Shown: positions 17,993 through 18,746 of the stretch, piece by piece
Layout: every line of letters starts with the position of its first letter
How positions within the stretch are numbered: the first letter of the stretch is position 1
From: a virus
Taxonomy: Duplodnaviria > Heunggongvirae > Uroviricota > Caudoviricetes
DNA: 18,746 bases
IMG/VR virus record: IMGVR_UViG_2778261514_000005
Direction: 5' to 3' (one strand)
The notes under the pieces: model-generated
Told to the model about the DNA's origin: nothing
Seen by the model: the letters and a program-made list of their open reading frames with translations, nothing else
The model's database searches: none
Program-made: the position numbers and the translations under genes

Positions 17993-18055
17993 GAGGTAGC
18001 CTGAGTTTAACGGACACTCCTTCCTGAAATAGAATGGCATCAGAAGGAGCTAATA

Positions 18056-18358
18056 ATGAGCAGAAAAACCCAACGTTACTCTAAAGAGTTCAAAGCCGAA
18101 GCTGTCAGAACGGTTCTTGAAAATCAACTTTCGATCAGTGAAGGCGCTTCCCGATTATCTCTTCCTGAAGGCACTTTAGGACAATGGGTTACCGCCGCCA
18201 GAAAAGGGCTCGGTACTCCTGGTTCCCGCACGGTGGCTGAACTGGAATCTGAAATTCTGCAACTGCGTAAGGCGTTAAATGAAGCTCGCCTTGAGCGAGA
18301 TATATTAAAAAAAGCAACAGCGTATTTTGCACAGGAGTCGCTGAAAAATACGCGTTAA
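18056..18358 (+). CDS. IS3-family transposase OrfA (helix-turn-helix / leucine-zipper subunit)
   Basis: 100-aa track ORF MSRKTQRYSKEFKAEAVRTVLENQLSISEGASRLSLPEGTLGQWV...ILKKATAYFAQES, matching IS600-type OrfA as I recall it. Confidence 0.9.
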   Translation: MSRKTQRYSKEFKAEAVRTVLENQLSISEGASRLSLPEGTLGQWVTAARKGLGTPGSRTVAELESEILQLRKALNEARLERDILKKATAYFAQESLKNTR

Positions 18359-18746
18359 TCGAACAATGGCGACAACAATTTCCCATTGAAGCGATGTGTC
18401 AGGTATTTGGTGTATCCAGGAGCGGTTATTACAACTGGGTACAGCATGAACCCTCAGACATAAAACAAAGTGATGAGCGGCTAAAACTGGAGATTAAGGT
18501 GGCACATATCCGCACTCGCGAAACATATGGGACCCGGCGGCTCCAGACGGAGCTGGCAGAGAATGGCATCATCGTTGGTCGTGACCGACTGGCACGTCTT
18601 CGTAAGGAGCTAAGGCTACGCTGTAAGCAGAAACGCAAGTTCAGAGCGACTACGAACTCGAACCACAATCTGCCAGTTGCGCCAAATCTGCTGAACCAGA
18701 CGTTCGCTCCTACAGCACCAAATCAGGTCTGGGTGGCGGACCTGAC
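18307..18746 (+). CDS. IS3-family transposase OrfB (5' part, -1 frame relative to OrfA), truncated by the window edge
   Basis: A-AAA-AAA slippery run at about 18307-18313 inside orfA. My translation of the -1 frame gives ...ALIEQWRQQFPIEAMCQVFGVSRSGYYNWVQHEPSDIKQSDERLKLEIKVAHIRTRETYGTRRLQTELAENGIIVGRDRLARLRKELRL..., the typical IS3-family OrfB N-terminus. Confidence 0.8.

What the first reader, a model, noticed from the sequence alone, without database searches (positions are those of the whole stretch)
17993..18746. IS3-family element inserted into the head region; prophage probably defective while tail and cargo genes stay intact
The IS junction falls inside the coding sequence of the upstream head-region gene, and the ORF-finder 'start' of that gene is IS sequence. 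Loss of a head gene would block virion production. Despite this, the tail genes, the G/T frameshift site, lom and the porin all show uninterrupted reading frames. That pattern fits a cryptic prophage retained for its cargo genes, or possibly for a tail-derived function.
Basis: partly seen in the sequence, partly recalled or inferred. Interest (0 to 1): 0.5.

Follow-up and report, generated by a model that had tools for sequence, protein, structure and literature searches.

The report
IS600 in a prophage head-fibre gene
An ordinary IS600 insertion sequence has recently landed in a gene next to the portal gene of a lambda-like E. coli prophage. The gene it splits is not the portal itself, so the insertion alone does not show that the prophage is dead.

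Summary
Window 17992-18746 is the left 755 bp of IS600 (IS3 family), and the true end is one base left of the stated 17993. It interrupts a minus-strand head-region gene, and the ORF-finder's GTG start (18017) is IS sequence.

Sister E. coli genomes carry the identical junction with the full 1264-bp IS and a 3-bp TGG duplication. Removing the IS and one TGG from STEC17-183 reproduces an IS-free allele (STEC2018-607) with 0 mismatches in 2423 bp.

The disrupted gene is annotated "portal, frameshifted", but it is a separate ORF ("X"). The 454-aa HK97-type portal lies upstream and is intact in the sister genomes. X has an N-terminal helix, 2-7 copies of a 54-aa repeat and a beta domain ending in a chitin-binding-like (CBM5/12) knob. 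It is conserved beside the portal gene from E. coli to Variovorax. Whether it is essential is unknown.

All tail genes, the G/T slip site, lom and the porin are intact, but the insertion is so recent that this says nothing about selection. Defectiveness is plausible: a sister genome has a stop in its DnaC-like gene, and ompW-site prophages are reported as defective. This IS does not prove it. The case is ordinary.

The parts
17992..18746 (+). Left 755 bp of IS600 (IS3 family), cut by the window end. Contains the left inverted repeat at 17992-18018, a promoter-like site at 18007-18035, orfA at 18056-18358, the A7G frameshift run at 18307-18314, and an open orfB frame from about 18301 to 18746.
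   Evidence: 100% identity to annotated IS600 copies. Terminal inverted repeats and 1264-bp length in L001. HTH_Tnp_1 in orfA and rve in orfB. Frames and slippery run. Promoter-like site.
17989..17991 (.). Left copy of the 3-bp target-site duplication (TGG). The right copy lies beyond the window.
   Evidence: In L001 and L002 the IS is flanked by TGG on both sides. Removing the IS and one TGG gives 0 mismatches in 2423 bp against the IS-free STEC2018-607.
17304..17991 (-). 3' fragment of gene X (last 228 codons plus the stop), now lacking a start codon. Positions 17754-17991 hold about 1.5 of the 162-bp (54-aa) repeat units. Positions 17304-17753 encode the conserved C-terminal beta domain with a CBM5/12-like knob.
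17992..18017 (-). Spurious 5' extension of the ORF-finder ORF 17304..18017. The GTG start and the first residues (VSVKLRLPH) are read from the IS left inverted repeat or span the junction.
16981..17307 (-). gp6-like head-tail connector gene, overlapping the stop of X by 4 nt (ATGA). It has its own GGAGG Shine-Dalgarno 7-8 nt upstream, so it probably does not depend on translation of X.
   Evidence: Pfam Phage_connect_1. Sequence read directly. ORF intact.
14360..16971 (-). Intact head-completion and tail-shaft genes: head closure protein (16621-16971), gp10-like (16178-16624), gp17 tail completion (15837-16181), major tail protein with an Ig domain (15054-15770), and tail chaperones G (14665-15039) and T (14360-14641). 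The -1 slip site A AAA AAG lies at 14674-14668.
   Evidence: Pfam matches. No internal stops. Slip site and the in-frame continuation into T read.
436..14312 (-). Intact distal tail and cargo block: tape measure (11046-14312), M (10712-11053), OmpC-like porin (9419-10513), L (8511-9209), K (7757-8500), I (7179-7760), J (3005-6700), Lom (2313-2936) and the tail-fibre N-terminal-domain protein (436-2163).
   Evidence: Full-length Pfam matches. No internal stops, and no indels against L001. PGAP annotation of the sister genome.

Best explanation
A complete IS600 copy transposed into a lambdoid prophage of the type that integrates next to ompW and carries a Pankowvirus-like head module. Only the left 755 bp of the IS is in the window. 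The IS3-family mechanism left a 3-bp TGG duplication.

The target was the 162-bp repeat array of gene X, the ORF that overlaps the stop codon of the portal gene and precedes the gp6-like head-tail connector.

Shown:
- The insertion splits X into a 5' piece (126 codons plus 5 IS-encoded codons in sister genomes) and a start-less 3' piece (228 codons, window 17304-17991).
- The portal, protease-capsid fusion and terminase genes are open in the sister genomes; the connector genes, all tail genes, lom and the porin are open in the window itself.
- The event is simple and very recent. It is confined to four of 5426 complete genomes, plus the window's source.

Inferred:
- X is a portal-associated, fibre-like virion protein. 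It has an N-terminal helix, a length-variable helical stalk of 2-7 repeats, and a distal beta domain with a CBM5/12-type carbohydrate-binding knob.
- The IS removes the knob from its anchor, which abolishes whatever X does.
- Late transcription under Q antitermination should read through the IS, and the next gene has its own ribosome-binding site, so polar effects on tail genes are probably small.

My reading is that the IS alone does not prove a block in particle production. The prophage is probably non-autonomous anyway, because this prophage family accumulates several lesions. The intact tail and cargo genes reflect lack of time to decay rather than selection.
For: IS identity and anatomy.

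Identical junction in four complete genomes.

Perfect empty site (0 of 2423 mismatches after removing the IS and one TGG).

IS-free intact X of 353 aa (STEC2018-607), 461 aa (SCU-106) and 407 aa.

X is separate from the portal:
- The portal ORF of 454 aa carries the whole Phage_portal / TIGR01537 domain.
- X has no portal domain.
- Stand-alone X follows the portal gene in Klebsiella and Variovorax with the same gene order.

X is conserved and physically linked to the portal:
- 5512 clusters at 50% identity match at E<=1e-3.
- The X ORF is intact in 72 of 74 IMG/VR loci, at 299-569 aa in 54-aa steps.
- It is fused to the portal in 26 of 74 loci through a G6 run, including in phages 2851 and YYZ-2008.
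- It is also fused in an unrelated 1237-aa protein.

Recency: (9 scattered SNPs, no indels).

Other lesions in a sister genome.

Literature: PMC8112680 and PMC2669165.
Against: - The right IS end, the 5' part of X and the portal gene are not in the window. They are inferred from genomes with the identical left junction.
- The function and essentiality of X are untested. Its strong conservation could equally mean it is required for assembly.
- A portal C-terminus normally faces the capsid interior. That sits awkwardly with an external fibre when X is fused to the portal.
- No expression data were available on polarity.
Confidence: 0.75

Rival explanations
1. The IS knocks out an essential head-assembly gene, so no infectious particles can form. 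The cell keeps the cryptic prophage for lom, the porin and other cargo, or for a tail-derived function.
For: - X is conserved next to the portal gene across Proteobacteria and kept open in 72 of 74 loci, so phages clearly need it for something.
- PGAP and PHROGs label it 'portal'.
- Prophages at ompW are described as defective yet stably maintained with cargo, and their DNA was not packaged in tested strains (PMC8112680).
- Cargo is present: Lom and the porin in the window, and a YadA-like adhesin and an S6 autotransporter beside it in the sister genome.
Against: - The portal domain is a separate, intact ORF.
- The architecture of X (variable stalk plus CBM-like knob) is that of accessory fibres.
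- The insertion shows no sequence divergence from its empty site, so intact tail and cargo frames carry no signal of selection.
- Nothing tailocin-like is present: sister genomes retain the head, terminase, integrase and lysis genes.
- Defective head genes can be complemented by co-resident prophages (PMC2669165). STEC17-183 has a second copy of the portal and the X C-terminal domain.
Confidence: 0.3
2. X is made mainly as a C-terminal extension of the portal. This would happen through the G6 allele, or through -1 slippage on the G5 run. On this view the IS truly truncates 'the portal protein', and the two-ORF state is a pseudogene, as PGAP annotates it.
For: - The fused 859-aa ORF occurs in phages 2851 and YYZ-2008 and in 26 of 74 IMG/VR loci.
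- phrog_2271 models the fusion.
- In either allele, a -1 slip on the G run would give the other product (sequence reading).
Against: - 48 of 74 loci have G5, including deposited phage genomes such as 1717, WGPS8 and PPompW_699.
- Klebsiella and Variovorax relatives have no G run, and X there has its own start overlapping the portal stop.
- The window's lineage is G5, so its portal ends at its own stop codon regardless of the IS.
Confidence: 0.1
3. The junction is an assembly artefact: a chimeric join at a repeated IS.
For: IS600 is multicopy, with up to 43 places per genome. The target is itself a tandem repeat that breaks many draft assemblies; many homologues are partial proteins at contig ends.
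Against: The identical junction occurs in four independently finished genomes from Switzerland and Japan. They show a matching right junction, a clean 3-bp duplication and a perfect empty-site counterpart.
Confidence: 0.02

Closest known systems
IS600 (IS3 family, first described in Shigella sonnei)
   Same: 754 of 754 nt identity to annotated copies. It has TG...CA ends, 27-nt imperfect inverted repeats, orfA (HTH_Tnp_1) and orfB (rve/DDE) linked by an A7G -1 frameshift run, a 1264-bp length and a 3-bp duplication.
   Different: Nothing in the element itself. Only the insertion site is particular. A second, independent IS600 sits 6 bp away in the same motif in four other STEC genomes.
Defective lambdoid prophages at the ompW site (PPompW; Nakamura et al. 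2021, PMC8112680)
   Same: Sister genomes place this prophage with its integrase next to ompW. It has the same head and tail module as the deposited PPompW records. IS insertions and scattered pseudogenes match the published description.
   Different: The published PPompW prophages carry type III effector loci and an internal attB. Here the cargo is Lom, an OmpC-like porin and, in the sister genome, a YadA-like adhesin and an S6 autotransporter. The lysis and head genes are otherwise retained.
O157 Sakai prophages Sp6, Sp9 and Sp12, scored 'portal defective' (Asadulghani et al. 2009, PMC2669165)
   Same: They are described as having the same non-lambda head-region organisation. Despite the predicted head and portal defects, Sp9 DNA was packaged and Sp6 was transferred. 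This shows that such lesions do not by themselves end mobility.
   Different: I did not check whether the Sakai 'portal defects' are the G5 two-ORF state or something else. No IS600 is involved there.
Accessory head or neck fibres and portal-bound minor head proteins (phi29 head fibres, T4 whiskers, SPP1 gp7). This is an analogy from my own knowledge, not tested here.
   Same: The gene lies next to the portal. The layout is a modular anchor, stalk and knob. A carbohydrate-binding-type tip is shared with phage fibres.
   Different: No sequence or fold homology to any of these was found. The location of X in the virion is unknown.

Membership tests
IS3 family / IS600 | Imperfect terminal inverted repeats ending 5'-TG...CA-3' | tested here: met
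   27-nt arms, 70% complementary, sit exactly at the element ends in L001. The window holds the left arm at 17992-18018, identical in sequence.
IS3 family / IS600 | orfA (helix-turn-helix) and orfB (DDE/rve) in relative -1 frames, joined at an A-rich slippery run | tested here: met
   orfA at 18056-18358 matches HTH_Tnp_1 at 1.5e-20. orfB in L001 matches rve at 3.2e-26. The A7G run is at 18307-18314, and the -1 frame is open to the window end.
IS3 family / IS600 | 3-bp target-site duplication and a full length of about 1.26 kb | tested here: met
   TGG lies on both sides of a 1264-bp element in L001 and L002, and the empty site is perfect. Within the window only the left copy (17989-17991) is visible.
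Phage portal protein (Pfam PF04860 / TIGR01537), applied to the disrupted gene | Presence of the portal domain in the interrupted ORF | tested here: not met
   Neither full-length X (407 aa) nor the window fragment hits Phage_portal. The whole domain lies in the separate upstream 454-aa ORF. The 'portal' label comes from fused G6 alleles.
CBM5/12 carbohydrate-binding module (tip of X) | Sequence match above the Pfam threshold, or a clear fold match | tested here: inconclusive
Lambda-like tail module | Gene order V-G-T-H-M-L-K-I-J with a -1 frameshift site at the G/T junction | tested here: met
   Pfam matches for every gene. A AAA AAG at 14674-14668 leads in frame into T. The one departure is a porin gene inserted between M and L.
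ompW-site prophage (PPompW) | Integrase adjacent to ompW | not testable with these tools
   The window does not reach the prophage ends. The condition is met in STEC17-183, which shares the window's junction, and in the IS-free SCU-106.
Tailocin or tail-only element | A tail cluster lacking capsid and packaging genes, with dedicated regulation and lysis | tested here: not met
   Head-completion genes are present in the window. Terminase, protease-capsid, portal, lysis, Q, integrase and excisionase genes are present in the sister genomes.

The most novel reading that the evidence does not exclude
Gene X may represent a large, unrecognised family of portal-vertex fibre proteins: more than 5000 clusters at 50% identity, currently mislabelled 'portal' or 'gp6-like connector'. 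Each has a carbohydrate-binding knob on a stalk that changes length in 54-aa steps. In E. coli, X would toggle between a free subunit and a covalent portal fusion through a slippage-prone G5/G6 run. On this reading the IS600 hit would yield fibre-less but otherwise viable particles, rather than a dead prophage.
Probability: 0.15. Interest if true: 0.55.

Novelty: already known. Interest (0 to 1): 0.15.

Why it matters
As found, it matters little. IS elements interrupting lambdoid prophage genes in pathogenic E. coli are routine, and this very junction is already annotated in public genomes.

Two practical lessons follow.
- The 'phage portal protein, frameshifted' pseudogene call that PGAP places on about a quarter of E. 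coli genomes' prophages of this type is an annotation artefact: two real genes are compared with a fused reference. Prophage-intactness calls based on it are therefore unreliable.
- Intact neighbouring reading frames are not evidence of domestication when the inactivating event shows no divergence from its empty site.

The conserved portal-adjacent fibre-like gene would merit a small experimental study.

Tried and rejected
- Rfam over the whole window (gathering thresholds) and over the I-J spacer (E<=1) found nothing meaningful.
- A sequence search of X against PDB chains and NCBIfam gave no informative hit.
- I considered programmed -1 frameshifting on the G run at the portal/X junction. I downgraded it because the run is absent from the Klebsiella and Variovorax relatives, where X has its own overlapping start.
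- I considered the Cys-to-Ser change at a near-invariant position (window 17399) as a sign of post-insertion decay. I rejected this because the IS-free STEC2018-607 allele carries the same Ser.
- I first assumed the fused/split difference was an A-run polymorphism. It is in fact a G run, G5 versus G6.
- Literature searches for 'phage 2851 portal' and 'IS600 prophage portal' returned nothing relevant.
- An assembly artefact was rejected on the basis of four finished genomes and the perfect empty site.

Full report
**What is in the window**

Every minus-strand gene from 436 to 17307 is open and matches its Pfam family end to end. In order these are:
- a tail-fibre N-terminal-domain protein;
- Lom;
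- J, I, K and L;
- an OmpC-like porin;
- M and the tape measure protein;
- T and G, the major tail protein, gp17 tail completion, a gp10-like protein and the head closure protein;
- a gp6-like head-tail connector.

G ends ...GCC AGA AAA AAG TAG.

**The IS**

Window 17993-18746 is 100% identical to copies annotated as IS600. This element has a match in 3385 of 5426 complete E. coli genomes.

The window sequence is collinear with E. coli STEC17-183 (locus L001), with 79 substitutions and no indels. In L001 the element is 1264 bp and begins with TGAGGTAGCC. That corresponds to window 17992, one base left of the stated start. It ends ...ACACCTCA and has 27-nt imperfect terminal inverted repeats.

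orfA (18056-18358) is an HTH_Tnp_1 protein. orfB carries an rve (DDE) domain. The A7G frameshift run is at 18307-18314, and the -1 frame stays open to the window end. A promoter-like TTAACG-17-TAGAAT lies at 18007-18035. All defining IS3-family features are met.

**The junction**

The ORF-finder ORF 17304..18017 begins at a GTG inside the IS left repeat. Its first residues, VSVKLRLPH, are IS-derived or span the junction.

In L001 and in JNEC-KY179 (L002) the IS is flanked by TGG on both sides. A 120-bp query spanning the junction finds the exact join in only four complete genomes: STEC17-183, S19-651, JNEC-KY179 and JNEC-KY208.

I deleted the 1264 bp and one TGG from STEC17-183. The result is the portal-X region of the IS-free strain STEC2018-607, with 0 mismatches in 2423 bp. 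The window's own left flank is identical to that of STEC17-183. This is a simple, recent transposition, not an artefact.

Four other STEC genomes (for example 2013C-3492, L004) carry an independent IS600 six bases away in the same repeat motif. There the far side has been replaced by unrelated DNA.

**Which gene is hit**

PGAP calls the flanking pieces 'phage portal protein', marked incomplete or frameshifted. It applies the same 'frameshifted' label to IS-free prophages. ORF analysis shows two genes:
- a 454-aa ORF holding the entire portal domain (Phage_portal 2-321/321; TIGR01537 2-343/343);
- a second ORF, here called X, overlapping the portal stop (ATGA).

X is 353 aa in STEC2018-607, 407 aa in 2012EL-2448 and 461 aa in SCU-106. 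It has no portal domain.

The 'portal' name comes from alleles where one extra G fuses the two ORFs into an 859-aa protein: TTCAGGGGGGATAC (G6) instead of TTCAGGGGGATAC (G5). Phages 2851 and YYZ-2008 are fused. Phages 1717, WGPS8 and PPompW_699 are split. Among 74 IMG/VR loci, 26 are G6 and 48 are G5. The window's lineage is G5, so its portal ends at its own stop codon whatever happens in X.

**What X is**

X has three parts:
- an N-terminal helical segment;
- 2-7 copies of a 54-aa unit (...HIPVPRDGRDYDPEVLQKAVNDAV...);
- a conserved domain of about 145 aa.

In IMG/VR, 72 of 74 copies are intact, with lengths of 299, 353, 405/407, 461, 515 or 569 aa.

An exhaustive HMMER search with the window fragment finds 5512 clusters at 50% identity with E<=1e-3. 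Most are stand-alone proteins of 214-862 aa with the conserved domain at the very C-terminus. One distant member is again fused to a portal (1237 aa).

In Klebsiella and Variovorax prophages the gene order is terminase, protease/capsid, small ORF, portal, X, gp6-like connector, head closure, gp10-like, gp17, tail tube. This is the same order as here, and X overlaps the portal stop.

A C-domain AlphaFold model from a 51-sequence alignment reaches pLDDT 87.6.
- BFVD matches are collagen-repeat and CBM5/12 fibre proteins.
- Pfam gives a sub-threshold CBM_5_12 hit.
- Some homologues end in collagen-like repeats.

I infer that X is a portal-associated, fibre-like virion protein with a glycan-binding tip. 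This is an inference. No experiment or solved structure was found.

**Consequences of the insertion**

The IS sits at ...VKEALSH|IPVPRDG..., inside a repeat unit. It separates 126 N-terminal codons from 228 C-terminal codons.

The downstream connector gene has its own GGAGG ribosome-binding site 7-8 nt before its ATG. Late transcription in lambdoid phages is Q-antiterminated (established knowledge). I therefore expect little polarity on tail genes.

Whether loss of X stops particle formation is unknown. Its conservation argues that it matters to the phage. Its architecture resembles accessory fibres, which are often dispensable. I put about 0.3 on 'essential'.

**Is the prophage defective, and is it retained for cargo?**

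In STEC17-183 the prophage lies next to ompW with integrase and excisionase genes. The Q, lysis, terminase and protease-capsid genes are open. There are, however, internal stops in a DnaC-like ATP-binding replication gene and in a DUF1627 gene. The DnaC-like gene is intact in the IS-free SCU-106 prophage. These lesions lie outside the window and may or may not apply to its source strain.

Nakamura et al. report that all ompW-site prophages they examined appear defective yet stably kept, and that their DNA was not packaged in tested strains (PMC8112680). Asadulghani et al. show that Sakai prophages with predicted portal or head defects were nevertheless packaged (Sp9) or transferred (Sp6), apparently through complementation (PMC2669165). 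STEC17-183 has a second copy of the portal and the X C-terminal domain, but the three other junction-bearing genomes do not.

The intact tail and cargo frames say nothing about selection. The IS-bearing and IS-free alleles are identical over 2.4 kb. The window differs from STEC17-183 at only 9 scattered sites plus three recombination-like patches, with no indels. Too little time has passed for decay.

Nothing suggests a tail-only element, because the sister genomes retain the head and packaging genes.

**Verdict**

The element, the junction, the duplication and the intact neighbours are right. The inference from 'head gene lost' to 'no virions', and the inference of retention for cargo or tail function, are not supported by the evidence.

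The event is an ordinary, already annotated IS600 insertion.

The more interesting by-products are these:
- the 'frameshifted portal' annotation is mistaken;
- X belongs to a large, uncharacterised family;
- the porin gene sits inside the tail operon.

Noticed in passing
window 9419-10513 (minus strand), between M (10712-11053) and L (8511-9209): A full-length OmpC-like porin gene (Pfam Porin_1 1-337/337) is inserted inside the tail operon. It is absent from all 50,697 deposited phage records, where only the M and L flanks match (8% coverage). It is annotated 'porin OmpC' in the listed complete E. coli genomes that carry this prophage type; 29 genomes cover at least 80% of the window.
   Followed up: partly
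window 6701-7178 (spacer between tail genes I and J): The spacer holds a tandem duplication of a unit of about 230 bp (6788-6945 and 7014-7176). Each unit ends in a stem-loop plus T-run on the plus strand. A strong minus-strand terminator (6781-6758) lies just before J, and the second copy contains a 39-codon ORF with a ribosome-binding site. A single copy is common and unannotated in Stx phages such as VT1-Sakai and WGPS6. There is no Rfam match.
   Followed up: partly
outside the window: L003 about 10628-10650; L006-L010 about 1524-1545 (portal/X junction): A G5/G6 homopolymer polymorphism decides whether the portal and X are two ORFs or one 859-aa fusion (48 versus 26 of 74 IMG/VR loci). 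PGAP marks the G5 state 'portal, frameshifted' even in otherwise intact prophages. Stand-alone X is variously named 'phage portal protein' or 'gp6-like head-tail connector' in NCBI records.
   Followed up: yes
L004 9936 (strain 2013C-3492 and three related STEC genomes): An independent IS600 insertion lies 6 bp from the window's site in the same repeat motif (GGGATATGG^CTTAC^). Here an IS-mediated rearrangement joins it to an integrase remnant next to ompW. This may indicate a local target preference.
   Followed up: partly
L001 versus L002 (same IS junction); window 17758-17991: Genomes sharing the identical IS junction differ in repeat number on the 3' side: the fragment is 228 codons in one and 336 codons in the other, a difference of two 54-aa units. 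The repeat array has therefore changed by recombination since, or around, the insertion.
   Followed up: partly
window 1411-1465, 5027-5936 and 7913-8471: 70 of the 79 differences from STEC17-183 cluster in three patches, in the tail fibre, J and K genes. This pattern is typical of recombination between related prophages rather than point mutation.
   Followed up: no
L001 374-2460, plus the gene cut at position 1 (left of the window in STEC17-183): Beyond the tail-fibre genes the sister genome carries a YadA-like adhesin and an S6-family (SPATE-type) autotransporter peptidase. These may be further cargo of the same prophage end.
   Followed up: no
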